The translations under genes and the position numbers were made by a program. This document shows, piece after piece, positions 7,585-64,000 of a stretch of DNA of 64,000 nt. Every line of letters begins with the position of its first letter. Positions within the stretch are counted from its first letter, which is position 1. The notes beneath the pieces are model-generated. The model did no database searches. It was not told where the DNA came from and was given only the letters and a program-made list of their open reading frames with translations. Source of the stretch: an uncultured Geobacter sp. (GTDB lineage: Bacteria; Desulfobacterota; Desulfuromonadia; Geobacterales; Geobacteraceae); the NCBI GenBank assembly GCA_903915655.1, contig CAIWTU010000039.1:24113-88112 (forward strand). The letters are read 5' to 3'.

Positions 7585-7719
7585 AAGAAGGGACGATTTA
7601 TTGCCGTTATATTTAAGCTGAAAGATTACGGAAATTTTTCTGTACGGCTCCTATAACTAATTGCTAATCGACTGGTCAGAATCTGAAATATTTATTAATA
7701 TGAAGAGTGAGAGGTAACG

Positions 7720-9876: not shown

Positions 9877-9886
9877 TTTTAATGTT

Positions 9887-9918
9887 AAAAGAGTAAAGAC
9901 CGTTTGATTTCTTTACTC
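9887..9918. terminator. Hairpin between convergent genes; T-run on the minus strand (speA terminator)
   Basis: gagtaaag-N12-ctttactc, preceded by aaaa on the plus strand, which reads TTTT after the hairpin on the minus strand. Confidence 0.5.
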
Positions 9919-9970
9919 GGCACGGCCGGGTAAATCCGGCGGTTTCAAGTTTTTGAAGCCGATCCTGCTA

Positions 9971-11878: not shown

Positions 11879-11963
11879 AATTTACCAACTTTCTGTTAAA
11901 GAAGTGTTCAGAATAGAGAATTAACAGCTATTCTGATATCAGACATCTGAACGCTGACCGCTT

Positions 11964-13118: not shown

Positions 13119-13210
13119 TGGTCTCTGCCTATATGCTGAAGGGGCGGTTTTTACCGTCCGAAGAGGCGCCGTTTCGAGGCGCCTACAAAAACAGTGATCC
13201 TCTTTTATCT

Positions 13211-14407: not shown

Positions 14408-14578
14408 CTGTAAGTCCTCTTTGCATGTGAAATGAAAAAATGCTTCAGGGAAAATGCGTTATTCAGAATTATTCTCTTGCCGGAATAAGCAAAAAAAATT
14501 TCTAGCGTGCCAGCCTCTTGCAAATGTGAAAACAGTCGTCATTCCTGGAGAGGAAAATCTTTCTGCCTGAACATCGTG

Positions 14579-15124
14579 CTAATAGTAAAATGTCGGAGGG
14601 GTTACCACCCACAATATCCTCGCCGGCCCTTTACCAATATTTTTCACGGAATGCTTCCTGTCGGAACAAAAATAGAAGCATTCATCCTTCCTTAACGTGT
14701 GCAGCTTCTCGTCCAGCCTCAACTGAACTTTTCCGAGCAGAACGAATCCGAATTCCTCCCCTTCATGGAACTGCTGCTCGTCCATTTCTTCTCCTGGCGC
14801 AAGAGTTACGAGAACAGGGTCCATCTCCCTGTTCTGTGCTCCAGGCACCAGAAGTTCGACTTTTATTCTTTCATCACTGGAAGCCTGTACCCTGGCATCC
14901 TTGCCGTAGACAATATCCTCGGCATCGGTCGTGTCGCTGAAAAATTCCTGCATGCTGACTCCAAAGACATCCAGGATGTCCTTCAGGGTAGCAATGGAGG
15001 GGGAAGTGGCATCATTTTCGAGCTGGGAGATGAATCCCTTGGTAAGGTCGGCACGGCTTGCCAACTCTTCCTGGGTAAGAGAGTTGATAATCCTCAATCG
15101 CTTCAACCCCTCGCCTATTCTCAA
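14579..15124 (-). CDS. XRE-family HTH transcriptional regulator with C-terminal cupin domain
   Basis: HTH_3 signature (LKRLRIINSLTQEELASRADLTKGFISQLEN) followed by a cupin-like beta-barrel segment (…HEGEEFGFVLLGKV…). Confidence 0.85.
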   Translation of the reverse strand: MRIGEGLKRLRIINSLTQEELASRADLTKGFISQLENDATSPSIATLKDILDVFGVSMQEFFSDTTDAEDIVYGKDARVQASSDERIKVELLVPGAQNREMDPVLVTLAPGEEMDEQQFHEGEEFGFVLLGKVQLRLDEKLHTLRKDECFYFCSDRKHSVKNIGKGPARILWVVTPPTFYY

Positions 15125-15420
15125 ATAATCCTCCCGGTATGATAACGGTAAGCTTTTCTGCCAATTGAATAAGTTTAGTGATTCTAAACTTTATGTTTAA
15201 CAAGGTCAGGTTTATAATATAACGGAAACAAGCTGTCAATAATTATTTTCAATGGCGGACACTATATCTCCCCCTCGCTGCAGAATGACTTTGCAAATTC
15301 ATTGACATCCTACTGTTGATTTATTACCTTTACACCGACCTGCGGCAATGTGAGAAAGCTGGGGTTACCGGGGAGTTCTTATCCAGGGGCGGGTTATGAG
15401 CATTTAACAAGGAGGCGACA

Positions 15421-16233
15421 ATGATTAATGAGGCACTGGTAGGGTTTATAGGTGGCGGTAATATGGCAGAAGCCATCATAAAGGGATTATTGGCTGGAGG
15501 AGTCTCGTCATCTAATATTACGGTATCCGAACCTCTTGAAAAACGGAGGAATTTTCTGAGTGAGACCTACAAGGTAAATGTATCCACTGATAACGGAGCC
15601 GTAGTTTCGGCCGCTTCGCTAATCATTATGGCCGTAAAGCCACAGGTATGCGTCAAAATTCTTGAGGGGATAGCAAACGACAATTTCCATGGGAAACTGG
15701 TTGTTTCAATAATGGCCGGGGTGAGAACGGGAACGATAGAAGCTGCCCTTGACTCCGGTGTCAGAGTAGTAAGGGTTATGCCCAATACTCCGGCACTCGT
15801 GCTTGAAGCAGCCACAGCCATATGCCCCGGCTCCTGTGCAACAACTGAAGATGTTGCACTTACCACTACTATCTTTAACCTCCTCGGCAAGACATGCCAG
15901 GTTGAGGAAAAGCTTCTCGATGCGGTAACAGGTCTTTCGGGAAGCGGCCCGGCTTATGTATTTACCTTCATTGAGGCGCTTTCCGATGCAGGAGTCAAGA
16001 ATGGCCTCCCCCGTGATGTCGCCACCATGCTTGCGGCGCAGACCGTTTTTGGCTCCGCGAAAATGGTGCTGGAGACTGGGGAGCACCCGGCTCTGTTGCG
16101 GGAAAAAGTTACCTCTCCGGGCGGGACGACTATTGCGGGACTCCATGTTCTGGAGCTGGCAGGCTTTCGGGGAACTGTCATGACGTCGGTGGATGCTGCG
16201 ACAAACCGTTCGTCGGAATTGGGGAAGAAGTAA
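15421..16233 (+). CDS. proC: Pyrroline-5-carboxylate reductase
   Basis: 270 aa. NADP-binding GFIGGGNMAEAI and the C-terminal …VTSPGGTTIAGL… signature. Confidence 0.93.
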   Translation: MINEALVGFIGGGNMAEAIIKGLLAGGVSSSNITVSEPLEKRRNFLSETYKVNVSTDNGAVVSAASLIIMAVKPQVCVKILEGIANDNFHGKLVVSIMAGVRTGTIEAALDSGVRVVRVMPNTPALVLEAATAICPGSCATTEDVALTTTIFNLLGKTCQVEEKLLDAVTGLSGSGPAYVFTFIEALSDAGVKNGLPRDVATMLAAQTVFGSAKMVLETGEHPALLREKVTSPGGTTIAGLHVLELAGFRGTVMTSVDAATNRSSELGKK

Positions 16234-52598: not shown

Positions 52599-53174
52599 CT
52601 ATTTCCGCATAGCAAACACTTCCCTGATATCAGTTTGTTTGATAAGACCACTCTCTATAACCAACATGTCATAAACTGTATTGACTTCAGTAAATCTCAG
52701 AAGAGACATATTGATGCTATTGCAAACATCAATTCGACACCATTTTGACGAATCATCAACCGTGACGTGCCGCCGGCAGACGAAAGGGCGTGACTTGTAG
52801 ATGGAACAAGAGCCTTTCTTCAGGAAAGGACAAGGGCTTCCGTAAGTATTCCCAGTAATTATTTCCTTCGCAGGCTTAATACCCTCAGTTTTTCTGATAT
52901 ATTCAACTTCCAGTTTAGATATGGATACTTCAATGTGGCAGCAATGTGTGCATCCTTTTTTGCATGGTGTGAATTTTTGTATGAATTCAAGGAGGTCGTC
53001 CATAAATTCATATAGAGATTTCAACTTGCTGAAGTAATTGCCGCTATGCTTCATAAACCTGGCCACAAGCTGCTCTTCTTGAGACTTTAAATGAGGAGGA
53101 AGCGTACGAGCTATTAGGTCGCTGTTTTTCTGAGCCCTTAATCGGGCTTGTTCCTTTTCATCTTGTTCAACCAT
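52599..53174 (-). CDS. YkgJ-family cysteine-cluster (CxxCxxCC / UPF0153-like) protein
   Basis: FTPCKKGCTHCCH… and …GSPCPFLKKGSCSIYKSRPFVCRRH are the two halves of the YkgJ Zn/Fe-binding motif. It lies 56 nt downstream of the E2-E1-JAB gene. Confidence 0.75.
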   Translation of the reverse strand: MVEQDEKEQARLRAQKNSDLIARTLPPHLKSQEEQLVARFMKHSGNYFSKLKSLYEFMDDLLEFIQKFTPCKKGCTHCCHIEVSISKLEVEYIRKTEGIKPAKEIITGNTYGSPCPFLKKGSCSIYKSRPFVCRRHVTVDDSSKWCRIDVCNSINMSLLRFTEVNTVYDMLVIESGLIKQTDIREVFAMRK

Positions 53175-53230
53175 ACCGTTACTCCTCCTTTCCTTGTATA
53201 AGACAGACTACTTGTCGTCAGCGTTTGAAA

Positions 53231-55474
53231 TCAATAATCACCGTAGTCGGCAAAGCATGTCAGCTCACGGTTATACCAAATCAGGTTGAATGCTGGGATG
53301 CCGAGCCGTAATTTCCTGATTTTCTGCAGCATCGCTTCATCAATCCCAGACGGTGCACTCCCGTACAGATGACTGTGCCACGTGCCGAGATATGTCAGCC
53401 CGGATGATTTCAGAATATTGGTGATTTTGTCCCTCAGTCCATCAATCCCCAGCACAAACAAACCACTTTTTCGAATGGAATCAGGTGGTGCTTCTAAAAT
53501 CCTGGTTACAATGGCGCACTTTCGCGCCAGACAGAGCCGTCCGATTAGTAACCCACCGGTTTCAACATCAGGCCACTTCCCGACTTCCTGTTCCATGGAA
53601 TCGAATGCAGAAGACAGCACTCTGAGCTCCCAGTCCCTATTCTGAAGATTCACGACGTGGGTTTTCCCGAGAAATGCCGTTTCCCATTTCAGAGACATTC
53701 CCATATCGGACATGCAACCGATTGATATCTCACCATCAACCTGGATATTACCCTCGTACGCCAGACGGGCGCGTTCGGCCATTGCTGCCGAATACATGGA
53801 TATTTTCGTATCCGGAATGACCATGGTATATGAGCCGCAACCCTGACCGGTTGAATGGCGCCGAAATCCATCGCCAGAACCCATTAGCACATTGGACACC
53901 GCTTTATTGTCGATTGTCGAATCGAACATAGCGGCATGCAAATCATCGACTCGGGGGTTTCGTCCTTTCCCTTCAATGGTAATAAAGCCGAGTTTCCCTT
54001 CCGAATATAGACCTGTCTGAAAAACTCGTGAGTTATTCTGTGCGGCAGGGAGTGACGCCAAAGTCTCTCGTACATTAATCGAAGCGGTGGAATCAATCAC
54101 CAGGCTATTCTTTTCGAACAGCCGGTTCTCATTCTTTGCGACAAAATCCTGCAATGACTTTGGATAAGGGGTGGCCTCGATATTAAAAACGTCGATTTCC
54201 TTTTTCAGCAATTCTGCCTTATTTCCAGAGGTCTTTGTGAGAGCATGTCGAGCAAGGTTGTGCTCGGACATGCTTCTGTTGTCTATCAACTTAAAAGGTC
54301 CATGCCCGGCTCTGCAAAGGTGCAGCGCTATTTTCGAGCCCAAGCTTCCGCACCCTACCTGTATAATCGATTCCATCTGGGCTGGCGATGAGCCTGACAA
54401 CCCCTGCAGCAATTCAGGCCCTACTGCATGGAGGTGACAAATGATATCAACCGGAGAATCCTTGTCAGCAAATCCTATTGTATCGAACTTCACCCGGACC
54501 CGGTAAGCAAGTAATTCAAGGTTGGTGTTCTGGTTTATTAATGGCAATGGCCTTCTTACACAATGCACCGTTATCACATCGACAATCCGTGATGTATCCC
54601 TTAGCCGGTTCCAGAGAGATTGAATCTCCTGCCAGAAAATTTTATATGTGCCGTATACCTTGCTCTTTTCCCGCAGCTCACCAAGATTTGTAACGGTCTC
54701 GGGGAAGTACTCGTTGACAACCATATCTTTGTCGGGCCAACAAAACAGCAGGGGTCTTGTGTTTAACGAATAATTATCCTTTTTATAATCTCGTTCAGTT
54801 ACATCGGAGATAAACCTGCCGTCCAGTTTTCGTGGGGTATAGTCGACAACGCTGCAACGTGAAATGTTATCAATTTCAAAACTTTCTACAGCTAGATACT
54901 TGCTGCCTGCAATGTCGGTTATTAATGACCGAAGCTTTGCATGCTGATAGACGATAAAGTTATCAAAAGTGTCGTAACGAATTGGTTCCCACCCTTGATT
55001 CGGGTTGATAAGACTGTTGCTTGCTGCCTTCATCAACCAATCCTGCACCTGGTAAAGTATTTCAGTCAATCCAAGCCCTCGATGCAGCAGGTCATCCAGA
55101 GAACCTTCATATATACAAGGCTTTACGAAATCATCTTCAGAACCTGGATTGATATGAGGCAGATTCCTTGGGAAATCCTTTCGTAAAAAAACCGTAGGCG
55201 CTTTCCGCGGGTAGTTTGCCGGGAACCTGAAATAGACAGGTTCGCAATCCTTAACGCCCGTCGAGCTGATGCCAGCCTTGATTGCCCTGTTTGGGAGTGA
55301 TACTGCAAAGCTGGTAACGATTATCCAGCCATTTCCGTTCTGTATCGGCTCATCGAAAATTTCTAAATCCGGAAATGTATCCATTTCCTTGAGCGCCAGA
55401 ACGATTGCCTTGGGAATCGGCAAGACATAAGCCTTATCTTTCTTCTTATCCTTACCCATGAGAGTGCGGTTCAC
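53231..55474 (-). CDS. E2-like / E1-like (ThiF) / JAB (JAMM) triple-fusion protein, Cap2+Cap3-like
   Basis: aa ~75-125: YFRFPANYP…PHINP…KPCIYEG (UBC-like HPN…C). aa 371-410: IQVGCGSLGSKIALHLCRAGHGPFKLIDN (E1 Rossmann GxGxxG). aa 636-712: VETGGLLIG…GTWHSHLYGSAPSGID (JAMM E…HxH…S..D). The listed start is GTG at 55474. An ATG at 55459 overlaps the MBL stop (ATGGGTAA). Confidence 0.8.
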   Translation of the reverse strand: MNRTLMGKDKKKDKAYVLPIPKAIVLALKEMDTFPDLEIFDEPIQNGNGWIIVTSFAVSLPNRAIKAGISSTGVKDCEPVYFRFPANYPRKAPTVFLRKDFPRNLPHINPGSEDDFVKPCIYEGSLDDLLHRGLGLTEILYQVQDWLMKAASNSLINPNQGWEPIRYDTFDNFIVYQHAKLRSLITDIAGSKYLAVESFEIDNISRCSVVDYTPRKLDGRFISDVTERDYKKDNYSLNTRPLLFCWPDKDMVVNEYFPETVTNLGELREKSKVYGTYKIFWQEIQSLWNRLRDTSRIVDVITVHCVRRPLPLINQNTNLELLAYRVRVKFDTIGFADKDSPVDIICHLHAVGPELLQGLSGSSPAQMESIIQVGCGSLGSKIALHLCRAGHGPFKLIDNRSMSEHNLARHALTKTSGNKAELLKKEIDVFNIEATPYPKSLQDFVAKNENRLFEKNSLVIDSTASINVRETLASLPAAQNNSRVFQTGLYSEGKLGFITIEGKGRNPRVDDLHAAMFDSTIDNKAVSNVLMGSGDGFRRHSTGQGCGSYTMVIPDTKISMYSAAMAERARLAYEGNIQVDGEISIGCMSDMGMSLKWETAFLGKTHVVNLQNRDWELRVLSSAFDSMEQEVGKWPDVETGGLLIGRLCLARKCAIVTRILEAPPDSIRKSGLFVLGIDGLRDKITNILKSSGLTYLGTWHSHLYGSAPSGIDEAMLQKIRKLRLGIPAFNLIWYNRELTCFADYGDY

Positions 55475-56615
55475 TTATTATGGCTATTCCCGCTCCCCCT
55501 GCCGACATCTTTTTCTTGCCCGGGGGTTGTATCCCATCGACAGCAATGGTGAATTCCATCGGTTCATGTGTCGTTTCGTTTGGATATTCTCCAGTACACC
55601 TGAAATTCTTTGATATTTTAAGATATTCCTGCTTCGCAGCATAGCAAGGAGGGTCGGTCTCATCATCTTTGATAGCTCTGCTGGTGGAGATAATAAAGGC
55701 ACCTTCATTTGCTTGTGAGAGCGCTGATATTGCATCCGCATCAACCTTAGGGTCGTCGCATTGACTCCTGCTATCGAACGACAGGACATGCCACGAACAG
55801 TGATGGGGGATTTGGAGCAAGTCGTATTTTAAGTTGTCGAGGTTGTACTGATACTTCGCCCACAATTTATTCCAGATGGCGACCTCGGCGTCACCACCCG
55901 TCAAAAAGAGGCAGGCATCCTGGTGAGAAGCGTCTGCGGCAATATGAAATTGGATAATTATACTCGAGTGGTTTTTTACCAGGGTCTTCTCGTCCTCTTC
56001 ATTTTGAAGCGAAAACGGCCCCAAGACTCTCATCCATGCAGCTGTTGAATGAGTGCCATTGATTGCATAAAAAATTTCCCCCTGCTTTTTCAAGATTCCT
56101 TCCAAGCCTTCGGACTTTTGGTCTTCGTCCTCTCCAATAATCAGAATCCTGTCACCGTCCGTGATACCTACTCCATAGTTGTCTTTATACTGTTTTACGC
56201 GCCGCTTGGCTTCTGTACTGAAAGCCTTCGCGTCTTCAGTAAGCGTGTGGTTTTTACTTGCTCGCCTGAAAACCATTGGAGATGACCATATCTCTCTGAC
56301 AAAAATCTTCTTTTCTTCCCCTTCAGGAGGCTCATCAACGTAATCATTGGGTTTCCCCAGATGAAAATGATTCTGCAGGCCTGTACAGTGGTCTTTATCA
56401 GGGTGGCTTAGAACAAAAACATCAACATATGGCCGGCCCTTATCATCGGTTTTAATCCGTTTTCTCAATTCTGAAGCGACATCACATGCATCATCTTCTG
56501 GATTGTCAGCTGCAGTGCGGATGTTCACGTCAATGAGAATGTTGGTGTCATCAATAAGGGTGATGAGGGTCATGTCGCCGTTTCCAACAGGGAAGAATGT
56601 TATCTTTGCGCTCAT
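55452..56615 (-). CDS. Metallo-beta-lactamase-fold protein (ComEC/Rec2-type MBL signature), C-terminus …EPHSHG
   Basis: ITFFPVGNGDMTLI and VFVLSHPDKDHCTG (HxDxDH-type motif), later IPHHCSWH. The gene's 3' end overlaps the E2-E1-JAB start. Confidence 0.8.
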   Translation of the reverse strand: MSAKITFFPVGNGDMTLITLIDDTNILIDVNIRTAADNPEDDACDVASELRKRIKTDDKGRPYVDVFVLSHPDKDHCTGLQNHFHLGKPNDYVDEPPEGEEKKIFVREIWSSPMVFRRASKNHTLTEDAKAFSTEAKRRVKQYKDNYGVGITDGDRILIIGEDEDQKSEGLEGILKKQGEIFYAINGTHSTAAWMRVLGPFSLQNEEDEKTLVKNHSSIIIQFHIAADASHQDACLFLTGGDAEVAIWNKLWAKYQYNLDNLKYDLLQIPHHCSWHVLSFDSRSQCDDPKVDADAISALSQANEGAFIISTSRAIKDDETDPPCYAAKQEYLKISKNFRCTGEYPNETTHEPMEFTIAVDGIQPPGKKKMSAGGAGIAIISEPHSHG

Positions 56616-56696
56616 ACGGTCTCCTTGTGCTGCTATGATATTGGCAATAAATCTGTTTCAATAAATTTGTTGAACCAGCTGGCAAAAAAAAGAAAA

Positions 56697-57284
56697 TTAT
56701 TTTATGCGATAATAAATAAATTCGATGCCGCCTGAGGGGGCCATCTCTTCACGCCTCATGATGTAACCGCTTTCCCATAGCTGCTTGAGCTTGGTACTAG
56801 CGTTGGTGAGTTTCAAATCCAGTGCCGATGCTGCCGTTGAAGCTGTAGTCTCAGCAACTGTCAGGATATAATGGAGCAGGTCTGTGTTCCCTTTAGTTGG
56901 GCTCTGTCCTAACAATTTCCATGAGTCATCTTGCCATGAGAATAGCGGTTGTTCCTTCTTGTCGGCCGCCACATCGAGGTTCTCTATCAAGTCGTCATCA
57001 TCCAGGTCGACAATGGCGATTGCGTGCCTGGTGCGGAATCGGCTGGCTATCTCGACAACGCTCTCTCTTGAAAAGGATGCGTCAGTACGTTGTATCCCGG
57101 CAAACGATACCTTGAAAATATCAATTTCAGGATGTCTTTGGATAAAGTTTTCAAGAAGTTTGCCTACCTCTTTGCCTTGGGCATTTCCCCAACCGTCCGG
57201 GCTTTTCGTGAGGTCGACCAATTTGACAACACCGCGAGTCTGATTCATGCTTTTTATTGAACCAGAATTTTCCATATTTGTCAA
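56697..57284 (-). CDS. STAS-like (DUF4325-type) domain protein with C-terminal winged-helix HTH
   Basis: N-terminal …VVKLVDLT…GKEVGKLLENFIQRHPEIDIFKVSFAGIQRTDASFSRESVVEI… resembles DUF4325/STAS-like. C-terminal …LLHYILTVAETTASTAASALDLKLTNASTKLKQLWESGYIMRRE… is MarR-like wHTH. ATGA overlap with the upstream GHKL gene. Confidence 0.6.
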   Translation of the reverse strand: MTNMENSGSIKSMNQTRGVVKLVDLTKSPDGWGNAQGKEVGKLLENFIQRHPEIDIFKVSFAGIQRTDASFSRESVVEIASRFRTRHAIAIVDLDDDDLIENLDVAADKKEQPLFSWQDDSWKLLGQSPTKGNTDLLHYILTVAETTASTAASALDLKLTNASTKLKQLWESGYIMRREEMAPSGGIEFIYYRIK

Positions 57285-58156
57285 TACTTAAAATCAAAGG
57301 TGATATGTGTGCCCTTTACCGGCAGGAGTTCAAGGAAGCAATAGGCGGTGTCATGAGTATATACGTCATCGGCGGGGACAAGGTTTACGCGGGTATCTGC
57401 AAGTCGGACATGAAGCTTGCCATGGAACTGTTTCGCCTTCCTGGCACATGTCGTCAATCCACAGCCGTGACCACTTTTTTTCCGGTGTCTTGTAAGACCC
57501 TTCTCAAATGCGTCAATCACTATTTCGATATCTGTCGCATCCTTGTATTTCTTTGGTAGTTTGGGTCGAAGGGTTCCAAGTAGGCCTTTCCCGCTATCGG
57601 ACACAATAACCATAATTCCATTCTTGTATGTCTGCAGTGCCGCAAATGCGTCCAATTTTGTGGAGCTGTGCCTAATCACATTGTCAATCAGCTCGCCAAA
57701 AATTGTGAAGGACGCCTTGCCGAGCTTCTTGTCCTTGGTTTCAAGGGCATCAGCAAGGCGGCCGGGAAGTTCCGCGTCATCTTCATCGATGCGGACAATT
57801 TCCACCAGCCCCTTATTGGATTTTTTGTACAGCTGAGCGCCGGAAAATAAAGGTTTGGCAGGGAGTATTGTGACGTGGGGGGCAATGTGGTCAAAAAATC
57901 CCATTCTGTTGAAATAACCCATTACTTCAGAGTCTTCATTCTGGAAATCGATGGTTACTAATTTCCCCTCTGCTGAAAGTTGGTTGATGAGGCTTAAAAA
58001 TATTACGGCGGCATCGATAAGGATTTTTGAGCCTGGCAGAATTTCAAAACAAACTGACTCTTTCCCCTGAATTGCCTCTTTAGCTTTCCAGAGAATACCC
58101 TCAAGCTTGTCACCACCAATCCATACGTCTTCCGGGAAAGAGATTCTCGGCATCAT
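57281..58156 (-). CDS. GHKL (SpoIIAB/RsbW-like) ATPase/kinase with N-terminal STAS-like region
   Basis: N-box FGELIDNVIRHS, G1 VSDSGKGL, G2 SGHGCGL. The N-terminal 130 aa (…ILIDAAVIFLSLINQLSAEGKLVTIDF…MGYFNRMGFFDHI) look like an anti-sigma-antagonist-type fold. Confidence 0.72.
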   Translation of the reverse strand: MMPRISFPEDVWIGGDKLEGILWKAKEAIQGKESVCFEILPGSKILIDAAVIFLSLINQLSAEGKLVTIDFQNEDSEVMGYFNRMGFFDHIAPHVTILPAKPLFSGAQLYKKSNKGLVEIVRIDEDDAELPGRLADALETKDKKLGKASFTIFGELIDNVIRHSSTKLDAFAALQTYKNGIMVIVSDSGKGLLGTLRPKLPKKYKDATDIEIVIDAFEKGLTRHRKKSGHGCGLTTCARKAKQFHGKLHVRLADTRVNLVPADDVYTHDTAYCFLELLPVKGTHITFDFKY

Positions 58157-58458
58157 TTGACGGCCCTTTTGAGATGCTACTCTTGCGGAAGTGATTTATG
58201 CTGGCGCAGAGCTCTGCGATGTGAACTGACCAACAAGACTTCGGGTTTCAATTTCCGGCAATAAATAATTCCTGACCTGGATGTTATTACATTTTATTCA
58301 TACGCTCATATTCCCTCATATTCAAGAAGTTTTGATGCCGTAACTTCACAATTTAACAATAAAATACATACTTTGGTGTATTTTCAAATTGATTATATTT
58401 AGCAAACTGGCATTCAGCATCATGTTTCAAAAAATTACGAAATGTTTATTTTGACCCC

Positions 58459-58487
58459 TTGACTCCCACTAACACTTCCGATAGTAT
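58459..58487 (+). promoter_or_regulatory. Sigma-70-type promoter for the HTH-DUF499 operon
   Basis: TTGACT (58459-58464), 17-nt spacer, TAGTAT (58482-58487). It lies about 40 nt upstream of the ATG at 58526. Confidence 0.55.
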
Positions 58488-58525
58488 CTTCCGTAAAATT
58501 GAAACATCTAAAAAGGTACGGTTTT

Positions 58526-58804
58526 ATGGCACATGAAATAGTTGTAATAGGCTTGGGCACAAACGAGAAAGCCAGCAGCATTCTCAAAGCCGAATTGACC
58601 AAACGCGGCATTTCCTACACAAAACTGGCGGAGCTTTTAAACCAGCGTGGGTGGAAGCTGAACAAGCCGGCGGTCGACAACAGAATGAGCCGCAGCGGCT
58701 TCTCTGCTGACTTCTTCCTTGATTGCTTGCGGGTAATTGGCTGCGAAAATATTGGTGTACTAGTAGACAAACCTGTGAAGGACCTTGTGAAGAACTCCGA
58801 TTAA
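58526..58804 (+). CDS. Small HTH protein (DUF6471-like)
   Basis: …LKAELTKRGISYTKLAELLNQRGWKLNKPAVDNRMSRSGFSADFFLDCLRVIGC… resembles the DUF6471 pattern as I recall it. The ORF track starts at a TTG at 58499. Confidence 0.5.
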   Translation: MAHEIVVIGLGTNEKASSILKAELTKRGISYTKLAELLNQRGWKLNKPAVDNRMSRSGFSADFFLDCLRVIGCENIGVLVDKPVKDLVKNSD

Positions 58805-58834
58805 CCCAATTTTATTTAATTCTATGGAGAGACT

Positions 58835-61800
58835 ATGAAAACCGTACGCGACGCCTGTGTGCTTCAAGACAATGCCCTGGACATCCATGTAAGCGACCAG
58901 ATTGAACAACTTGACGAACTCATCGCCAACGAAAAGGACGGGCGTCTTTTCTTCGAGAAAACCCATATCACCGAAGGCATGAAGACCCTCATGATTGAGG
59001 GTATCGCCCGCCTTGCCGGGAAATCGAATCAGGCTATCTTCCATCTCAAACAGGCCATGGGCGGCGGTAAAACTCACTTGCTGGTCGGCTTCGGGCTGTA
59101 TGCCAAGCATGCCGTACTGCGAGACGAATACTGCTCCGATATTCCTCACATAAAAGCTTTCGCCGGCGCCAAGGTTGCCGCCTTCAATGGCAGGAACAGC
59201 CCGGCCCATTTCGTCTGGGGCGAGATAGCCGCCCAATTGGGGAAAGCAGAGCAGTTCAAGAAATTCTGGGAAAGCGGCCCCAAGGCTCCCGACGAGCAGG
59301 ATTGGGTATCCCTCTTCGATGGTGACACCCCAATCCTCATCCTGCTCGACGAGATGCCACCATATTTCCACTATCTCGACACCCAGCAGGTTGGGAACGG
59401 CACCGTTGCCGATATCGCCACCCGCGCCTTCGCCAATATGCTGACCGCCGCCAGCAAAAAGGCCAATGTTTGCGTCGTGATTTCCGACCTGACCGCTTCG
59501 TACGATACCGGCACGAAGTTAATTCATAAGGCGCTGGAAGATGCCCGCCAGGAGGTTGGCCGCCAGGAGAGGAACATCACTCCGGTCGACCTCGCCGGTA
59601 ACGAGATTTACGACATCCTTCGCAAGCGGATGTTCAAGAAGCTCCCCGACCGTGCGGTAATCGAAGATATCGCTGCCTCATTCGGCCGGGCCTTGGAGGA
59701 AGCGAGCAAGGCAAAAGTCGTGAATCGTGGCGCTGAAGCCATTGCCGATGAAATCGTCAACACCTATCCTTTCCATCCCCGCCTGAAAAACCTGGTTGCC
59801 CTTTTTAAGGAAAATGAAAAGTTCAAACAGACTCGCGGTCTCATGGAAATCGTGTCACGCCTGATGAGGTCGGTCTGGGAGCGCCAGGATAATGATGTCT
59901 ACCTGATAGGCCCGCAGCACTTTGATTTCTCCATTTCCGATGTCAGGGAAAAGATTTCCGAGATTTCCGAGATGCGGGATGCAATAGCCAAAGACCTCTG
60001 GGACGCGAACATGTCGTCTCATGCCCAAATCATTGACCTGAACACCGGCAATGATGCCGCGTCACGTGTTGGCGCTCTTCTCTTGACTTCCAGCCTTTCC
60101 ACCGCCGTGAACGCCGTCAAAGGCCTCACCAAGGAAGAACTGCTCGAATGCCTGGTTACTCCCATCAGCGGGGCAACCGAATTTGCCACGGCATTCGATT
60201 CGTTCCATGGCGTTGCCTGGTATGTCCACCACACCCCTGAGGGCAAGTATTACTTCGACCGCCAGGAAAATCTTACCAAGCTCCTGCAGAGCATTGCCGA
60301 GGATGCCCCGGACAACAAGATTGATGAGCTTATCAGCGACCGTTTGAAGGAAAAGTTTGCCCCAACCAGAAAAACCGCCTACGACGAAGTACTGCCGTTG
60401 CCGAAGATTAGCGAGGTTGCTGACAAGGTAAGAAAAAATCGCGTACTCTTGATAGTCAGCCCTGATTCAAAGGTACCACCTGAAGAGGTCCAGCGGCTCT
60501 TTGACAGCCTCATGCAGAAAAACAACCTCTGCATCCTTACCGGCGACAAGACCCAAATGGGCAGCGTAGAAAAGGCCGCCCGGCAGGTTTTCGCCGCCCT
60601 GAAGGCAGATAAGAGGATTCCGAAAGGCCATCCCCAGCGGGAAGAGCTTGACATGAAACAGCAGCAGTACGAGCAGGATTTCACCGCAACGGTGCTGAAC
60701 CTTTTTGACAAAGTAATTTTCCCAATTCACCGTCCTGGAAAGACCGCACAGCTTGTTTCCAAGCCGCTAGATATGACCTACGACCAAAAAAAAGGATTCA
60801 GCGGCGAAGAGCAAATAGAAAAGACCCTCACCAAAGACCCGATAAAGCTGTACCTCGACATAGAACAAAACTTTGACGGTATCAGAGACAAGGCGGAAGA
60901 ACTGCTGTGGCCGGCCAACCAGGATGACTCTAGGTGGAGCGACATTCAGGACAGGATTACAGAACAGGCCGGCATGCCATGGCTGCCGCCCAAAGGCCTT
61001 GACCAGCTAAAAGCTCTCGCTTGCAATCGCGGTCTTTGGGAAGACCTTGGCAATGGCTACATCACGAAAAAACCGCAGAAGAAAAAGACTTCCGTTCAAT
61101 ATACCAATGAGACACAACGCGACGATGAAGGGTACATCAGGATTCGTATCAATCCCCTGAATGCCGGCCCATCGCCCCGTATCTATTATGCCGAGGATGG
61201 CCCGGTCTCCGAAGCAAGCCAGTTGCTTGCCGAACAGACCCTGACCACCAAGGCCATTCGTGTCCAGTTCCTGGCCGTCGACCCCTCGAATCAGTTTGAG
61301 ACCGGCCCCGCAGTTACCTGGGATGCAAAGCCAGTTATCAGGAACAACCTTCTGGATGTCGAGCCGAAACGGAAAGTGGAGCTGTTCGTTGCACCAAAGG
61401 GCGCACTCAAATATTCCATGGACGGCAGTGAACCGCGTAACGGCATCGACTATACCGGAGCCATCGAGATTTCCGATGGCGATGTCCACCTGATGGTATT
61501 TGCCGAAGCCGATGGTCTTGAAGCCAAGGAAGAGTTCAGATTCGCCGCAAAGGGGCAAAAAGGTCTCCGTATTAAGGAAACCGAGCCCGCCCGCCTCATA
61601 AGCCCGCGTGGCGGCAAGCGTTTGGATTCCCGCATCAAGGCCTTCGCCGGGCTGAAAGAAGCCAAAGAGAAGAGCGTCAACTTCGAGCGGGTCACTCTCC
61701 AGATTGGCCAAGGTAGCCAGGCTGTCACGGTCATGTTTGGAGACATCCAGGTAGACGCAGAGTATATCGAGTCGGTTCTTGAAACCGTCCTGACCAAATT

Positions 61801-61921
61801 TGATGCCACTACCCCTATCACGCTGACCTTCGCCAAGGCCAATTTCCACTCCGGCCATGACCTGAAACAGTTTGCGGATAGCTTGGGTATCGACATCAAA
61901 CAAGAGGAAGTTGAGCAGTAA
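58835..61921 (+). CDS. DUF499-type large P-loop ATPase
   Basis: 1028 aa. Walker A HLKQAMGGGKTHLL, Walker B ILILLDEMPPY. Size and gene context (DUF3780-like plus DUF1156 methylase downstream) fit the DUF499 module. Confidence 0.72.
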   Translation: MKTVRDACVLQDNALDIHVSDQIEQLDELIANEKDGRLFFEKTHITEGMKTLMIEGIARLAGKSNQAIFHLKQAMGGGKTHLLVGFGLYAKHAVLRDEYCSDIPHIKAFAGAKVAAFNGRNSPAHFVWGEIAAQLGKAEQFKKFWESGPKAPDEQDWVSLFDGDTPILILLDEMPPYFHYLDTQQVGNGTVADIATRAFANMLTAASKKANVCVVISDLTASYDTGTKLIHKALEDARQEVGRQERNITPVDLAGNEIYDILRKRMFKKLPDRAVIEDIAASFGRALEEASKAKVVNRGAEAIADEIVNTYPFHPRLKNLVALFKENEKFKQTRGLMEIVSRLMRSVWERQDNDVYLIGPQHFDFSISDVREKISEISEMRDAIAKDLWDANMSSHAQIIDLNTGNDAASRVGALLLTSSLSTAVNAVKGLTKEELLECLVTPISGATEFATAFDSFHGVAWYVHHTPEGKYYFDRQENLTKLLQSIAEDAPDNKIDELISDRLKEKFAPTRKTAYDEVLPLPKISEVADKVRKNRVLLIVSPDSKVPPEEVQRLFDSLMQKNNLCILTGDKTQMGSVEKAARQVFAALKADKRIPKGHPQREELDMKQQQYEQDFTATVLNLFDKVIFPIHRPGKTAQLVSKPLDMTYDQKKGFSGEEQIEKTLTKDPIKLYLDIEQNFDGIRDKAEELLWPANQDDSRWSDIQDRITEQAGMPWLPPKGLDQLKALACNRGLWEDLGNGYITKKPQKKKTSVQYTNETQRDDEGYIRIRINPLNAGPSPRIYYAEDGPVSEASQLLAEQTLTTKAIRVQFLAVDPSNQFETGPAVTWDAKPVIRNNLLDVEPKRKVELFVAPKGALKYSMDGSEPRNGIDYTGAIEISDGDVHLMVFAEADGLEAKEEFRFAAKGQKGLRIKETEPARLISPRGGKRLDSRIKAFAGLKEAKEKSVNFERVTLQIGQGSQAVTVMFGDIQVDAEYIESVLETVLTKFDATTPITLTFAKANFHSGHDLKQFADSLGIDIKQEEVEQ

Positions 61922-62496
61922 TGGATAAGTACCTTTTCACAGATTTTGGCGCTCCGGATGAATACGGTGCCCATATATTTAAGGTTGAAATACCTGCCTC
62001 ACGGAGTGATGCAGTCCGGATTATCGAGGACTTTGGGCTAAAGGGTGGCGACAGCGGTCTGCCTTATGAAGAGGTAAGGGTGGTTCTCCCCCGTAAAGCC
62101 TGGTCTGCCATCGCGGAAACCGCCCGGAAAAATTTCAACGAACGCCTGAAAACCAAGAAACTCCTGACTGGGCGCTGGCGAGTTGGGACAGGCAAAGAGG
62201 CCACCAAGGTTGACCGGCTACTGGGGAAAGAGCTTTGCATTTTGGCTTGGGCGGTTGAAAACGCCGACGAAGATAAATACCCGGTCGTATGCAGCAAGTG
62301 GGTCTCGTTGCGCCCTGAAGAACGCTGGTGGCTGTTTTCCATGACTGCCGCGGAAGCCGGACTTGCGGAAGATGGCGACCGTGGCTGGCGGAAAGCCCTG
62401 CTCTATGCCCTGTCGGATGGCAAAGCCGGAGAGAAGACGGTAAAGCGCCGTCGCCCGGTTGTTGATGAAGATAACCTATCGTTGTTTGGAGTTTGA
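61921..62496 (+). CDS. DUF3780-like protein
   Basis: 191 aa. The start overlaps the DUF499 stop (TAATG). Assignment rests mainly on size and position between the DUF499 and DUF1156 genes. Confidence 0.5.
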   Translation: MDKYLFTDFGAPDEYGAHIFKVEIPASRSDAVRIIEDFGLKGGDSGLPYEEVRVVLPRKAWSAIAETARKNFNERLKTKKLLTGRWRVGTGKEATKVDRLLGKELCILAWAVENADEDKYPVVCSKWVSLRPEERWWLFSMTAAEAGLAEDGDRGWRKALLYALSDGKAGEKTVKRRRPVVDEDNLSLFGV

Positions 62497-64000
62497 TGAT
62501 GACTGATAAGAAGCAAATTGTCCCTTTTTCTTTAAGAGATGCTCCGGCGCTGATTGAAACAATTTTCCCATCGCAAAAGGTTTCTGTAGAAGCTTATAAA
62601 GAGCAAATGGCAGGAAGTGGCAAAACATTAACTCCCCTTGGAAGTTTTTGGAAAGGTAGAAAACCTCTAATTCTCAATAAAGCATGTATATTAGGTTGTC
62701 TATTACCTACAACATCAAACTTAAAGAGAGATTTGGAAATTTATGAAAAATTAATGGGCATGGATGATGAATCTTTTGTTGTTCGTTTTTCCAAGCGTCC
62801 ACGAATTCAAGAAATATTATCAAAAGTAAAAATCGATAATATATACGATTACTTTAAAATCCCTCCTGGATTTGCCCTCCCAATATCTTCCCCATTCAAT
62901 ATCTCAGACTATGAAAATATGGATATAAGTTGGCGGGAAGATATTACTGAACTAGAGCGAAGAAAAATTGAAGCTAAAGCACTTCCTTCACTGTCATATA
63001 AAGAAAAGGTAAGTAATTCAAAGAGACCTGAAGAGGTAATCAGTATAATTCATAATCATATTTGGCAGGATGTTAACCAACATCTAGGTACTAACGCCTA
63101 TTCTTTCCCAGAACTAGTTGAACAATTAGGGGTAATGCGTTTTGGGCATCGTCCCAGAGTTGGAGATACATTCGCTGGGTCTGGTCAAATTCCATTTGAA
63201 GCTGCAAGACTTGGATGTGATGTTTATGCTTCTGACTTGAATCCAATAGCATGCATGCTTAATTGGGGAAGTTTTAACATTATTGGTTGTTCCAATGAAA
63301 AGAGAGTCTTGTTAGAAAATAAACAAAAGATTCTTATACACAAGATACAATCTGAAATAGAAAATCTCGGCGTTGAAGTAAATAATGAAGGGCTAGTGGC
63401 AAAAGTATTTTTATATTGTTTTGAAGCAACATGTCCACAAACTGGATGGAAAGTTCCTCTTTTACCTAGTCTTGTTATAAGTAAACCAAGGACCGGCAAA
63501 TTGATAAATGTTATTGCTAAATTAGTTCCTGATAATATCAATAAAAGATATGACATTGTAATTGTTAACGGCGTTTCAAATGATGAACTTATGTCAGCTG
63601 AAAAAAATGGAACTATACGCTCTGAAACACGTGGACAAGATACATATATGGTTCATTCTGTTAATGGGGTTGAGTATCGCACAAAGATTTCAACTTTACG
63701 CGGAGATTACCGCAACACAAATGGTAGCACAGAAAACAAGTTACGACTTTGGGGGAAATCTGATTTTATACCCAAACAAGATGATATTTTCCAAGAACGT
63801 CTTTATTGCATCCAATGGAATCGCCCAAAAAAATCCGGCAAGGGTGATGACTTTGAATTTAGGGCTGTAACTCCAGATGATGTAATACGTGAACAAATCG
63901 TTAAGGATTACATTGCTGAACATATAATTGACTGGCAATCCAAAGGATGGATTCCAGATATGCGTATTGAGGTGGGAGGTCCACCCCGTTATCAAGGTCT
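62496..64000 (+). CDS. DUF1156-domain DNA methyltransferase, 3'-partial (not in the ORF track because no stop lies within the window)
   Basis: I translated frame 3 from ATGATG at 62496 to the window end without a stop. N-terminus MMTDKKQIVPFSLRDAPALIETIFPSQKVSVEAYKE… is DUF1156-like. …VGDTFAGSGQIPFEAARLGCDVYASDLNP… is SAM-binding motif I. Confidence 0.75.
   Translation, partial: MMTDKKQIVPFSLRDAPALIETIFPSQKVSVEAYKEQMAGSGKTLTPLGSFWKGRKPLILNKACILGCLLPTTSNLKRDLEIYEKLMGMDDESFVVRFSKRPRIQEILSKVKIDNIYDYFKIPPGFALPISSPFNISDYENMDISWREDITELERRKIEAKALPSLSYKEKVSNSKRPEEVISIIHNHIWQDVNQHLGTNAYSFPELVEQLGVMRFGHRPRVGDTFAGSGQIPFEAARLGCDVYASDLNPIACMLNWGSFNIIGCSNEKRVLLENKQKILIHKIQSEIENLGVEVNNEGLVAKVFLYCFEATCPQTGWKVPLLPSLVISKPRTGKLINVIAKLVPDNINKRYDIVIVNGVSNDELMSAEKNGTIRSETRGQDTYMVHSVNGVEYRTKISTLRGDYRNTNGSTENKLRLWGKSDFIPKQDDIFQERLYCIQWNRPKKSGKGDDFEFRAVTPDDVIREQIVKDYIAEHIIDWQSKGWIPDMRIEVGGPPRYQG

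What the first reader, a model, noticed from the sequence alone, without database searches (positions are those of the whole stretch)
58499..64000. HTH / DUF499 ATPase / DUF3780-like / DUF1156 methyltransferase module, with a sharp compositional break at the methylase gene
The module is divergently transcribed from the E2-E1-JAB operon. It comprises a small HTH protein, a 1028-aa P-loop ATPase (GGGKTH; LLDEMP), a 191-aa protein and a DUF1156-type SAM-dependent methyltransferase (FAGSGQIPFEA). The start/stop overlaps are TAATG and TGATG.

This combination is a recurrent defence-island, R-M-like module whose mechanism is poorly understood. A helicase or nuclease partner would be expected beyond the window.

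The methylase gene is visibly far more AT-rich than the ATPase gene it overlaps. Its codon usage is dominated by AAA, AAT, ATT and TTA. That suggests module shuffling or recent replacement of the specificity/modification component.

The ORF track omits this gene because it has no stop in the window.
Basis: partly seen in the sequence, partly recalled or inferred. Interest (0 to 1): 0.6.

Follow-up and report, generated by a model that had tools for sequence, protein, structure and literature searches.

The report
IS-split BREX-related defence operon, swapped methylase cassette
This is an ordinary member of a recently described family of methylation-based anti-phage systems, but its methylase gene is a patchwork with a foreign AT-rich front two-thirds and is cut in two by a jumping gene just past the window, so the system is probably switched off.

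Summary
Window 58.5-64.0 kb holds DUF6471, DUF499 ATPase, DUF3780 and a DUF1156 adenine methylase, with TAATG and TGATG overlaps. This is a "Type-2 BREX-related (BR)" system (NAR 2026).

The expected nuclease-helicase exists: an intact PLD/HKD-SNF2 gene on contig C14.

The methylase gene is interrupted 100 bp beyond the window by an IS256-family element with an 8-bp target duplication (ATGCAGAA). The insertion separates motif I and the TRD from motif IV. About 15 copies of this IS break the assembly.

The GC break is real and bounded. GC3 is 0.64, then 0.25, then 0.57, with change-points at methylase codons 8 and 676.

Two close relatives (backbone 85-87% identical) are only 60-63% identical in this segment. 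Across 48 loci, identity in the segment is decoupled from the backbone. AU tests reject congruence in three clades. The N-terminal two-thirds therefore behaves as a recurrently exchanged specificity cassette.

The small first gene is not a core component. It has an Xre-type HTH fold resembling R-M controller proteins. With its palindrome-bearing promoter it also heads BREX-1 and other operons.

The parts
58459..58487 (+). Operon promoter: -35 TTGACT (58459-58464), 17-nt spacer, -10 TAGTAT (58482-58487). An 18-bp imperfect palindrome ACTAACA-cttc-CGATAGT (58468-58485) fills the spacer and overlaps the -10. It is a candidate operator for the DUF6471 protein.
   Evidence: Consensus scan and coordinates. 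The same element sits 3 nt after the -35 and 36-44 nt before the ATG in 10 of 11 DUF6471 promoters from otherwise unrelated loci. Symmetric variants occur: CTAACG/CGTTAG in L094 and CTATCG/CGATAG in L100. The strict pattern occurs once in the 3.36-Mb genome. Binding is inferred, not shown.
58526..58804 (+). DUF6471 gene (92 aa from the ATG at 58526; the listed TTG ORF starts at 58499). Candidate Xre-type HTH controller and first gene of the operon.
   Evidence: Pfam PF20075, E = 2e-20. Homologues start MxHE..., which fits the ATG at 58526. The AF2 model from a 13-sequence alignment has core pLDDT 75-87. Its Foldseek top hits are Xre regulators and the R-M controller proteins C.EcoT38IS, C.BclI and C.Esp1396I (prob 0.9-0.99, E 0.2-1). 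It is present upstream of DUF499 in only 2 of 64 family loci.
58835..61921 (+). DUF499 AAA+/STAND-type ATPase (1028 aa, BrxC-like). Walker A is GGGKTH (residues 82-87) and Walker B is LLDEMP (residues 172-177).
   Evidence: NF042962 1484 bits (cut-off 1200). PADLOC PDLC02192 positions 1-1021 of 1022. Weak Fn3-like hits at residues 846-894. Motifs.
61921..62496 (+). Standalone DUF3780 protein (191 aa), the hallmark of Type-2 BR systems. Its start overlaps the DUF499 stop (TAATG).
   Evidence: PF12635 E = 1e-68; NF042961 233 bits (cut-off 200). Junction.
62496..64000 (+). N-terminal part of the DUF1156 N6-adenine methylase gene; the ATG at 62496 overlaps the DUF3780 stop (TGATG). The frame continues 100 bp past the window to C39:88212 and is then cut by an IS256-family element. 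The rest (residues 536-1011) lies on contig C14:149-1579.
   Evidence: PF06634; NF042963 positions 1-448; PDLC02189 positions 2-427. The C-terminal half on C14 matches NF042963 positions 489-960 and PDLC02189 positions 468-943. Joining the flanks gives one open frame: 1012 codons from the TTG at 62493, 1011 residues from the ATG at 62496. Motif I FAGSG is at residue 226 and motif IV DPPY at residue 625. The IS sits after residue 535.
62514..64000 (+). Low-GC exchanged cassette. It continues to about C14:566, i.e. methylase codons ~8-676, about 2.0 kb in all. It covers the DUF1156 domain, the AdoMet-binding region, the nested TRD and motif IV.
   Evidence: GC3 change-points. Identity to the closest loci drops from 85-87% in the backbone to 60-63% in this segment and recovers at residue ~620-650. 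The pattern is family-wide.

Best explanation
The region is a horizontally acquired Type-2 BREX-related (DUF499-centred) defence operon.

Gene order:
- promoter with a palindrome;
- DUF6471 small HTH protein;
- DUF499 ATPase;
- DUF3780;
- DUF1156 alpha-class N6-adenine methylase with a nested target-recognition domain (TRD);
- PLD/HKD-SNF2 helicase-nuclease. The helicase-nuclease gene and the 3' half of the methylase gene lie on contig C14.

Inferred mechanism, from the family description and from homology to BREX and Hma:
- The methylase marks a TRD-specified motif on host DNA.
- The ATPase, with DUF3780 as a possible modification reader, scans DNA.
- The HKD-helicase degrades unmarked invading DNA.

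Three layers of modular change are shown by sequence.
1. Methylase codons ~8-676 are a cassette of foreign, AT-rich origin. It was brought in by recombination within conserved flanks, namely the gene start and the region just after motif IV. The C-terminal third, probably the part that docks to the rest of the system, stayed with the operon. The same kind of exchange recurs throughout the family and most likely changes the recognised DNA motif.
2. The leader gene DUF6471 and its promoter/palindrome form a portable control cassette shared with BREX-1 and other operons. It most likely works like an R-M controller (C) protein or BrxR, as an autoregulating repressor. This is inferred.
3. An IS256-family element with an 8-bp duplication (ATGCAGAA) has inserted after methylase residue 535. 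It separates motif I and the TRD from catalytic motif IV, so methylation by this system is most likely lost.

Because all other genes are intact and both halves of the methylase are still open, the insertion is probably recent. It is tolerated either because it is polar on the downstream nuclease gene or because restriction needs the methylase, as in BREX and type I/III R-M. This last point is inferred.
For: Family membership:
- Curated and PADLOC hits to all four core proteins.
- Architecture as described for Type-2 BR in PMC12839542.
- The closest loci, L089 and L103, have identical gene order and lengths.

IS insertion:
- The end of C39 and the start of C14 carry the two ends of one IS.
- The transposase C-terminus is 80% identical to annotated IS256-family transposases, E = 5e-10.
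- The element has imperfect terminal inverted repeats and is flanked by the same 8 bp.
- The family model is split at positions 490/489, and the joined flanks give an open frame.
- The same duplication logic pairs 9 IS copies across contig ends, which serves as an internal control.
- No empty-site sequence is present in the assembly.

Cassette:
- GC3 change-points at codons 8 and 676.
- Identity to L089: DUF499 87%, DUF3780 79%, helicase 85%, methylase residues 651+ 82-96%, residues 101-650 46-70% apart from the motif I window.
- Identity to L103: 87%, 84% and 60%. L089 against L103: 86%, 82% and 62%.
- Among 1128 locus pairs, a backbone of 85-90% goes with a cassette mean of 66% (range 54-87%). 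Pairs at 90% or more range from 58% to 91%.
- Nucleotide profiles of six independent close pairs drop at the methylase start and recover at codons ~560-690. A control pair shows no drop.
- AU tests on the cassette alignment reject three backbone sister clades: p = 0.0004, 0.008 and 0.003.
- The cassette's GC3 is lower than its operon's in most loci, with a mean of -0.07 and an extreme of -0.27. Here it is -0.33.

Leader cassette.
Against: - No functional data exist for any Type-2 BR system. The mechanism is extrapolated from in-silico work and from Hma and BREX.
- For this locus the cassette tree does not reject a sister relation with L089 (support 58, long branches). The case for replacement here rests on the GC3 step and the 22-point identity gap, not on topology.
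- No donor was found; the best cassette match is 66% identical. L089 and L103 also have low-GC3 cassettes (0.38 and 0.37), so part of the AT-richness could be older than the split of these loci.
- The IS interior is not in the assembly, and reads could not be examined, so heterogeneity of the insertion is untested.
- The Foldseek E-values for DUF6471 are weak (0.2-1), and the palindrome arms in this window match at only 5 of 7 positions.
Confidence: 0.8

Rival explanations
1. The AT-rich, divergent N-terminal two-thirds of the methylase arose in place, without recombination. The cause would be rapid diversifying selection on the TRD, or selection for rare AT-ending codons that keep methylase expression low.
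For: The segment is the least conserved part of the protein in all comparisons. A negative GC3 offset is common in the family, which could reflect a shared selective pressure. The cassette tree keeps this locus and L089 as weak sisters.
Against: Some pairs with a 92-94% identical backbone have an equally conserved cassette: L076/L069 at 91.5% and L029/L031 at 87.6%. Others sit at 58-63%. This bimodality does not fit a uniformly fast clock. AU tests reject congruence in three clades. The GC3 steps are abrupt (0.64 to 0.25 to 0.57), lie at synonymous sites and also cover the highly conserved motif I and IV blocks. Low-GC hosts show no offset, whereas an expression-tuning bias should appear everywhere.
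Confidence: 0.1
2. The IS insertion is not fixed. The sequenced population contains cells with an intact methylase, through IS256-type insertion and precise excision acting as an ON/OFF switch, so the system is active in part of the population.
For: Both gene halves are intact and the 8-bp duplication is perfect, which is the substrate needed for precise excision. From my own knowledge, IS256 insertion and excision drive phase variation in staphylococci. The IS is highly active in this genome, with 15-16 identical ends.
Against: No empty-site sequence exists in the assembly. Every IS copy breaks a contig, as expected for fixed insertions. A consensus assembly would hide a minor variant, however, and reads could not be checked.
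Confidence: 0.12
3. The compositional break or the C39-C14 join is an assembly artefact, i.e. a chimera of two organisms or a wrong contig pairing.
For: The assembly is fragmented (171 contigs) and has an estimated 1.66% contamination.
Against: Both GC3 junctions lie inside contigs (C39 and C14) and are in frame. The two contigs are linked by an exact 8-bp duplication and consecutive family-model positions. The same logic pairs eight other IS copies. Equivalent mosaics occur between isolate genomes, for example L031 Advenella incenata against L040 Acinetobacter junii: backbone 91.6%, cassette 58.5%.
Confidence: 0.03
4. It is an ordinary type I or type III restriction-modification system.
For: It has an adenine methylase plus an SF2 helicase-nuclease, and the TRD is exchangeable as in hsdS and mod genes.
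Against: There is no HsdS, HsdR or Res-type architecture. The curated equivalog and PADLOC models assign all proteins to the DUF499/DUF3780/DUF1156/PLD-helicase set.
Confidence: 0.02

Closest known systems
Type-2 DUF499-centred BREX-related (BR) system (NAR 2026, PMC12839542). NCBIfam NF042961-NF042963 'anti-phage-associated'; PADLOC PDLC02189-02193.
   Same: The same four core genes in the same order. A standalone DUF3780. DUF499 with Fn3-like hits before its C-terminus. An alpha-class methylase with an N-terminal DUF1156 domain, a nested TRD and a conserved C-terminal third. A helicase with an N-terminal PLD/HKD domain.
   Different: The methylase gene is split by an IS256-family element. 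An extra DUF6471 leader gene is present; the paper does not mention it. The paper notes TRD variability but not the bounded cassette exchange documented here.
Hma system, also called Type-1 BR (HmaA/B/C; PADLOC PMC8565338; Halomonas study PMC11232893)
   Same: Homologous DUF499 ATPase and DUF1156 methylase (HmaC E = 1e-54, HmaB E = 4e-12). It pairs an SNF2 helicase with a nuclease. It is the only relative with experimental anti-phage data: HmaA alone restricts T4.
   Different: Hma has no DUF3780, and its nuclease is a C-terminal PD-(D/E)xK (NOV_C) domain rather than an N-terminal HKD. A complete Hma locus with a WYL regulator exists elsewhere in this genome, on C44.
TRD/specificity-domain shuffling in type I hsdS, type III mod and type IIG genes, and PglX of BREX
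   Same: A variable DNA-recognition segment is exchanged by recombination within conserved flanks, while the part that interacts with partner proteins is kept. Mosaic composition results.
   Different: Here the exchanged unit also carries the N-terminal DUF1156 domain, the AdoMet-binding region and motif IV. Exchange is between genomes, not between silent cassettes within one locus. Whether specificity changes is untested.
Leader regulators: R-M controller (C) proteins, and BrxR/CapW (WYL) and RptR (PMC12255303) as leader repressors of defence operons
   Same: A small first gene, an Xre-type HTH fold closest to C.EcoT38IS, C.BclI and C.Esp1396I, and a palindrome inside its own promoter overlapping the -10. 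It occupies the same slot as the WYL regulator of the paralogous Hma locus.
   Different: A different sequence family (DUF6471), with no sequence match to C-proteins or RptR. No binding or regulation data exist.
IS256 family insertion sequences
   Same: Transposase termini, imperfect terminal inverted repeats, an 8-bp target duplication, and multicopy expansion.
   Different: The interior of the element is missing from the assembly, so it cannot be typed to a named IS.

Membership tests
Type-2 BR (DUF499-centred BREX-related) system | DUF499 AAA+ ATPase (BrxC-like) | tested here: met
   NF042962 1484 bits, above the 1200 cut-off. PDLC02192 full length. Walker A and B intact.
Type-2 BR (DUF499-centred BREX-related) system | Standalone DUF3780 gene inside the core locus | tested here: met
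   PF12635 E = 1e-68. NF042961 233 bits, above the 200 cut-off. The gene lies between the ATPase and the methylase.
Type-2 BR (DUF499-centred BREX-related) system | N6-adenine methylase with an N-terminal DUF1156 domain, a TRD nested between motif I and motif IV, and a conserved C-terminal region | tested here: met
   The two halves cover NF042963 positions 1-490 and 489-960. FAGSG is at residue 226 and DPPY at residue 625. The gene is interrupted by an IS, so each half alone is below the 1000-bit cut-off.
Type-2 BR (DUF499-centred BREX-related) system | SNF2 helicase fused to an N-terminal HKD/PLD nuclease | tested here: met
   C14:1583-4282, 899 aa. PLDc_2 at residues 19-175, SNF2 and Helicase_C domains present, PDLC02193 positions 3-905 of 905. 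The H-x-K...GSxN signature, GLGKT and DEAH are conserved.
Type-2 BR (DUF499-centred BREX-related) system | Adenine methylation of host DNA and protection against phage | not testable with these tools
No experiment on any Type-2 BR system was found in the library.
IS256 family | Mutator-type transposase | tested here: inconclusive
   Only 24 N-terminal and 31 C-terminal residues are in the assembly. The C-terminus is 80% identical to annotated IS256-family transposases (E = 5e-10). The N-terminus gives weak hits to the same family. Pfam finds nothing on such short peptides.
IS256 family | Imperfect terminal inverted repeats and an 8-9-bp target-site duplication | tested here: met
   Left inverted repeat GAGGGTGTAAAAAGGTTTGTGTAAATGG; right inverted repeat (reverse complement) GGGCCTGTAAATAGTTTTGTGTAAATGG. 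The duplication ATGCAGAA is present on both sides. Eight further copies pair by 8-bp duplications.
R-M controller (C-protein)-like leader regulator (a works-like comparison for DUF6471) | Xre-type helix-turn-helix fold | tested here: inconclusive
   The alignment-based AF2 model has core pLDDT 75-87. All top Foldseek hits are Xre or C-protein HTH structures, with prob 0.9-0.99 but E 0.2-1. Sequence hits to HTH families are below threshold. The single-sequence model gave nothing.
R-M controller (C-protein)-like leader regulator (a works-like comparison for DUF6471) | Palindromic operator within its own promoter, and first gene of the controlled operon | tested here: met
   An 18-bp element sits between the -35 and -10 at a fixed position in 10 of 11 promoters. 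The gene is first in all 12 contexts examined. Binding was not tested.
Type I / type III restriction-modification | HsdM/HsdS/HsdR or Mod/Res subunit set | tested here: not met
   There is no HsdS, HsdR or Res architecture. All proteins map to the DUF499/DUF3780/DUF1156/PLD-helicase models.

The most novel reading that the evidence does not exclude
Two portable modules may shape BREX-related immunity.

(a) The first ~675 codons of DUF1156 methylases would be a specificity cassette. It moves between genomes by recombination at two conserved anchors, the gene start and the block just after motif IV. One ATPase/reader/nuclease chassis is thereby repeatedly re-targeted to new DNA motifs, while the C-terminal third stays as the docking module.

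(b) DUF6471 with its palindrome-bearing promoter would be an undescribed family of C-protein-like controllers. It travels as a unit and is plugged in front of BREX-1, Type-2 BR and other defence operons. It may also serve as a homology anchor for swapping whole cargo operons: L099 has the same 6A-MBL block and DUF6471, but BREX-1 follows instead of BR-2.
Probability: 0.5. Interest if true: 0.55.

Novelty: new member of a known kind. Interest (0 to 1): 0.38.

Why it matters
- The locus adds nothing categorically new. It is a Type-2 BR system, a family already catalogued in silico and by annotation pipelines.
- The family has never been tested experimentally, and this analysis gives three concrete handles for doing so.
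  1. A bounded cassette (methylase codons ~8-676) can be swapped between close backbones (this locus, L089, L103). That would test whether it alone sets the methylated motif and the restriction specificity.
  2. A natural IS knock-out of the methylase sits beside an intact nuclease-helicase. This bears on whether restriction in these systems depends on the methylase, as it does in BREX.
  3. A candidate small controller, with a defined 18-bp operator, is shared between BREX and BR operons. It is a testable addition to the short list of defence-system regulators (C-proteins, BrxR/CapW, CapR, RptR).
- For annotation, the case is a reminder that a gene running off a contig end may be cut by an IS rather than simply truncated.

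Tried and rejected
- **Read evidence:** Neither the IS junction nor population heterogeneity could be tested with reads.
- **IS body:** no contig holds the interior of the IS, probably because short contigs were filtered out.
- **IS peptides:** Pfam on the 24-aa and 31-aa peptides gave nothing. tblastn against annotated plasmids was used instead.
- **Dating by sister genomes:** none of 36 same-genus or same-family genomes has the operon. One same-order genome has a copy at 68% nucleotide identity.
- **Donor search:** the best cassette match in 5.8 billion proteins is 66% identical, so no donor was identified.
- **AU test for this locus plus L089 on the cassette:** not rejected; they remain weak sisters. 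I therefore do not claim topological incongruence for this particular locus.
- **Single-sequence fold of DUF6471:** pLDDT 64 and no meaningful PDB matches. It was replaced by an alignment-based model.
- **RptR as a possible identity for DUF6471:** rejected. RptR has a different fold and no sequence match.
- **Composite-transposon reading of the two IS copies flanking C14:** rejected, because each copy has its own 8-bp duplication.
- **** was a mistyped request that returned an error.

Full report
**1. What is in the window**

The plus strand from 58.5 kb to the window end carries four co-directional, tightly packed ORFs.
- 58499/58526-58804: 92 aa from the ATG at 58526.
- 58835-61921: 1028 aa.
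- 61921-62496: 191 aa.
- A frame opening at 62493/62496 that is still open at 64000.

Family searches are unambiguous.
- The large protein is the 'anti-phage-associated DUF499' equivalog: NF042962, 1484 bits against a cut-off of 1200, and PADLOC PDLC02192 end to end.
- The 191-aa protein is DUF3780: NF042961, above its cut-off.
- The open frame is the N-terminal half of the DUF1156 methylase: NF042963 positions 1-448.
- Walker A (GGGKTH), Walker B (LLDEMP) and methylase motif I (FAGSGQIPFEA) are present.
- The small first protein is Pfam DUF6471, not a recognised HTH family.

**2. What lies beyond the window**

The window is C39:24113-88112 of a 3.36-Mb, 171-contig genome, and the contig stops 239 bp after the window. 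A family search of the whole genome finds the missing half of the methylase (model positions 489-960) at the very start of the 6.1-kb contig C14.

Evidence that an IS256-family element splits the gene:
- The last 139 bp of C39 and the first 140 bp of C14 are the two ends of one insertion sequence.
- C39 ends with an inverted repeat and the start of a transposase (MTINTDVIDELLKHYKTPEEILGE).
- C14 begins with a transposase C-terminus (…KKWTLPIRDWKAAMNRFSILFEDRMPNL) that is 80% identical to annotated IS256-family transposases, E = 5e-10. The matching inverted repeat follows.
- The same 8 bp, ATGCAGAA, flank both ends. Removing the IS and one copy of the duplication gives a single open frame of 1012 codons from the TTG at 62493 (1011 residues from the ATG at 62496; residue numbers below use the ATG), with motif IV (DPPY) at residue 625.

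The IS therefore sits after residue 535, between motif I plus the TRD and the catalytic motif.

Two controls support this.
- The IS ends occur at 15 and 16 contig ends, and nine copies can be paired across contigs by exact 8-bp duplications. These include C39-[IS]-C14 and C14-[inverted IS]-C136.
- No empty-site sequence exists in the assembly.

**3. The rest of the system and its identity**

On C14 the methylase is followed, 3 bp later, by an intact 899-aa protein. It has an N-terminal PLD/HKD domain and an SNF2 helicase core, and matches PADLOC 'PLD_Helicase' over positions 3-905 of 905. The catalytic H-x-K…GSxN, GLGKT and DEAH motifs are conserved.

DUF499, standalone DUF3780, DUF1156 methylase and HKD-helicase are exactly the 'Type-2 BR (BREX-related) system' defined in silico in NAR 2026 (PMC12839542).
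- That paper proposes an R-M-like mechanism: methylase marks self DNA, a BrxC-like ATPase scans, DUF3780 may read modifications, and the HKD-helicase is the effector.
- I found no experiment on a Type-2 system.
- The only tested relative is Hma (Type-1 BR), whose helicase-nuclease alone restricts T4 in E. coli (PMC11232893).

None of 36 same-genus or same-family genomes carries the operon. Its closest relatives are scattered over many phyla. It is therefore island cargo.

**4. The compositional break**

The break is real and bounded on both sides.
- GC falls from 0.52-0.57 to 0.33-0.40 at about 62.5 kb.
- On the concatenated third-codon positions of the four genes, the best two-breakpoint model puts the changes at methylase codon 8 (window 62514) and codon 676 (about C14:566). 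GC3 is 0.64, 0.25 and 0.57, with a log-likelihood gain of 144.
- The tract's GC (0.358) lies in the lowest 0.07% of the genome's same-sized windows.
- Synonymous choice shifts strongly. Leu TTA is used 14 of 39 times against 1 of 93 in DUF499.

The anomalous unit is thus not the gene but its first two-thirds: the DUF1156 domain, the AdoMet-binding region, the nested TRD and motif IV. The C-terminal third has the composition of the operon.

**5. Is it a replaced segment?**

Two metagenomic loci have nearly the same operon.

| Comparison | DUF499 | DUF3780 | Helicase | Methylase cassette | Methylase C-terminal part |
|---|---|---|---|---|---|
| This locus vs L089 | 87% | 79% | 85% | 46-70% for residues 101-650 apart from the motif I window | 82-96% for residues 651+ |
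| This locus vs L103 | 87% | 84% | not available | 60% | not available |
| L089 vs L103 | 86% | 82% | not available | 62% | not available |

Three close backbones therefore carry three different cassettes. The identity step coincides with the GC3 step.

The pattern is general in the family.
- In 48 complete loci (1128 pairs), backbone identity of 85-90% goes with a cassette identity of 66% on average (range 54-87%).
- Pairs with 90% or more in the backbone range from 58% to 91%. L009/L055 have 94.6% against 63.1%, while L076/L069 have 91.9% against 91.5%.
- Nucleotide profiles of six independent close pairs drop at the methylase start codon and recover between codons ~560 and ~690. The control pair shows no drop.
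- On the cassette alignment, AU tests reject three sister groups that the backbone supports at 100%: p = 0.0004, 0.008 and 0.003.
- The cassette's GC3 is lower than its operon's in most loci (mean -0.07, down to -0.27). The offset vanishes in low-GC hosts. Here it is -0.33, the most extreme case.

Limits for this particular locus:
- The cassette tree does not reject sisterhood with L089.
- No donor exists among 5.8 billion proteins; the best match is 66% identical.
- L089 and L103 also have AT-rich cassettes.

'Replacement' is therefore well supported, but 'recent' is not.

The conserved blocks that flank the variable region are residues 26-75 and 626-650, which are 77-92% conserved across the family. 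They are natural homology anchors for the exchange.

**6. The small first gene**

DUF6471 precedes DUF499 in only 2 of 64 family loci. Its phylogeny is uncoupled from the operon.
- L094 has an 86%-identical DUF6471 in front of a very distant Type-2 BR operon (DUF499 34% identical).
- L089 has an 87%-identical operon but a DUF6471 that is only 53% identical.

In the 12 contexts examined it is always the first gene.

| Operon that follows DUF6471 | Count | Loci |
|---|---|---|
| Type-2 BR | 6 | this window, L085, L089, L094, L100, L103 |
| BREX type 1 | 2 | L098, L099 |
| DUF4236-containing | 2 | L101, L102 |
| Unknown | 2 | L104, L105 |

L099 also carries, divergently upstream, the same GHKL / small protein / MBL / E2-E1-JAB block as this window (74-85% amino-acid identity). 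There BREX-1 follows where BR-2 follows here.

Fold evidence:
- A model built from a 13-sequence alignment has a four-helix core with pLDDT 75-87.
- All its best PDB matches are Xre-type HTH proteins. They include the R-M controller proteins C.EcoT38IS, C.BclI and C.Esp1396I, CI/c2 repressors and CapH.
- Probabilities are 0.9-0.99 and rmsd is 1.5-2.5 Å over about 58-67 residues, but E-values are 0.2-1.

Promoter evidence:
- The promoter is TTGACT-17-TAGTAT at 58459-58487.
- It holds an 18-bp imperfect palindrome, ACTAACA-cttc-CGATAGT, that overlaps the -10.
- The same element, at the same distance from the -35 and from the ATG, is present in 10 of 11 DUF6471 promoters. Symmetric variants occur in L094 and L100.
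- The strict pattern occurs once in this genome.

The most economical reading is a portable promoter-operator-repressor cassette that works like a C-protein or BrxR. Binding is inferred. RptR, a recently described small defence-island repressor, is a different family. No paper in the library mentions DUF6471.

**7. Consequences of the IS**

- The N-terminal fragment (535 residues plus 7 IS-encoded residues) lacks motif IV. The C-terminal fragment lacks the AdoMet-binding region and the TRD. Methylation by this enzyme is almost certainly lost.
- All other genes are intact, and both halves are free of further lesions, which suggests a recent event.
- That a cell tolerates this next to an intact nuclease-helicase gene suggests one of two things. 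Either the IS is polar on the downstream gene, or restriction needs the methylase, as in BREX and type I/III systems. Both are inferences.
- From my own knowledge, IS256 elements can excise precisely, so a reversible OFF state is possible but untested.

**8. Verdict**

The object is a member of a described family, so novelty is modest. The added value has three parts:
- the IS-split methylase, which lies beyond the window;
- the delimitation of the exchanged cassette and the demonstration that it is a family-wide, statistically supported phenomenon;
- the DUF6471 control cassette shared with BREX-1 and other operons.

Noticed in passing
Genome contig C44 (locus L106) 4312-15552, minus strand: A second, complete paralogous system of Hma / Type-1 BR type. 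Gene order: WYL-domain regulator (292 aa), SNF2 helicase with a NOV_C nuclease domain (1176 aa), DUF1156 methylase (966 aa), DUF499 ATPase (935 aa). The genome thus holds an apparently intact Type-1 BR system and an IS-disrupted Type-2 BR system. In the Type-1 locus a BrxR-like WYL protein fills the leader slot that DUF6471 fills here.
   Followed up: partly
L099:1-12261 (Logan SRR31615017 contig) compared with window 52599-58804: The same divergent GHKL / small protein / MBL / E2-E1-JAB / CxxCxxCC block (74-85% amino-acid identity) plus DUF6471 (67%) is followed by BREX type 1 (BrxA-BrxB-BrxC-PglX) instead of the BR operon. The cargo operon downstream of a shared block has been exchanged.
   Followed up: partly
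All contig ends of the genome; e.g. C39:88213-88351, C14:1-140, C14:5957-6092: There are about 15-16 copies of one IS256-family element with identical 30-nt ends, and every one sits at a contig end. Nine can be paired across contigs by their 8-bp target duplications, which gives scaffolding links such as C39-C14-C136(rc), C9-C120, C16-C117, C41-C111, C42-C101, C43-C122, C77(rc)-C93 and C100-C104.
   Followed up: yes
C14 (L007) 4304-5158 and 5193-5909: After the helicase come an MBL-fold protein matching PADLOC candidate PDC-M48B (E = 6e-105) and a 238-aa ORF without family hits. Both are AT-rich (GC 0.38-0.42). They are probably another small defence candidate in the island.
   Followed up: no
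C136 (L107) 2748-7672, i.e. ~1.4-6.3 kb beyond the second IS: Three consecutive tyrosine-recombinase genes (409, 523 and 713 aa, weak Phage_integrase hits) sit at the right edge of the island. Beyond them GC rises to the genome's level at a ribonucleotide-reductase-like gene. They are likely the island's integration module, in a recombinase-trio arrangement.
   Followed up: partly
L009 vs L055 and L011 vs L010, between the methylase and helicase genes: In each of these close pairs one locus carries about 1.5 kb of extra DNA between the methylase and the helicase. Identity there is near zero over about 500 codons. This junction is another insertion hot-spot inside the operon.
   Followed up: no
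L101:6001-12261 and L102:1719-5729: DUF6471 homologues at 77-79% identity lead operons that contain DUF4236 proteins. In L101 there is also a large AAA_11/AAA_12 helicase with a topoisomerase-type zinc ribbon. These are uncharacterised cargo operons under the same control cassette.
   Followed up: no
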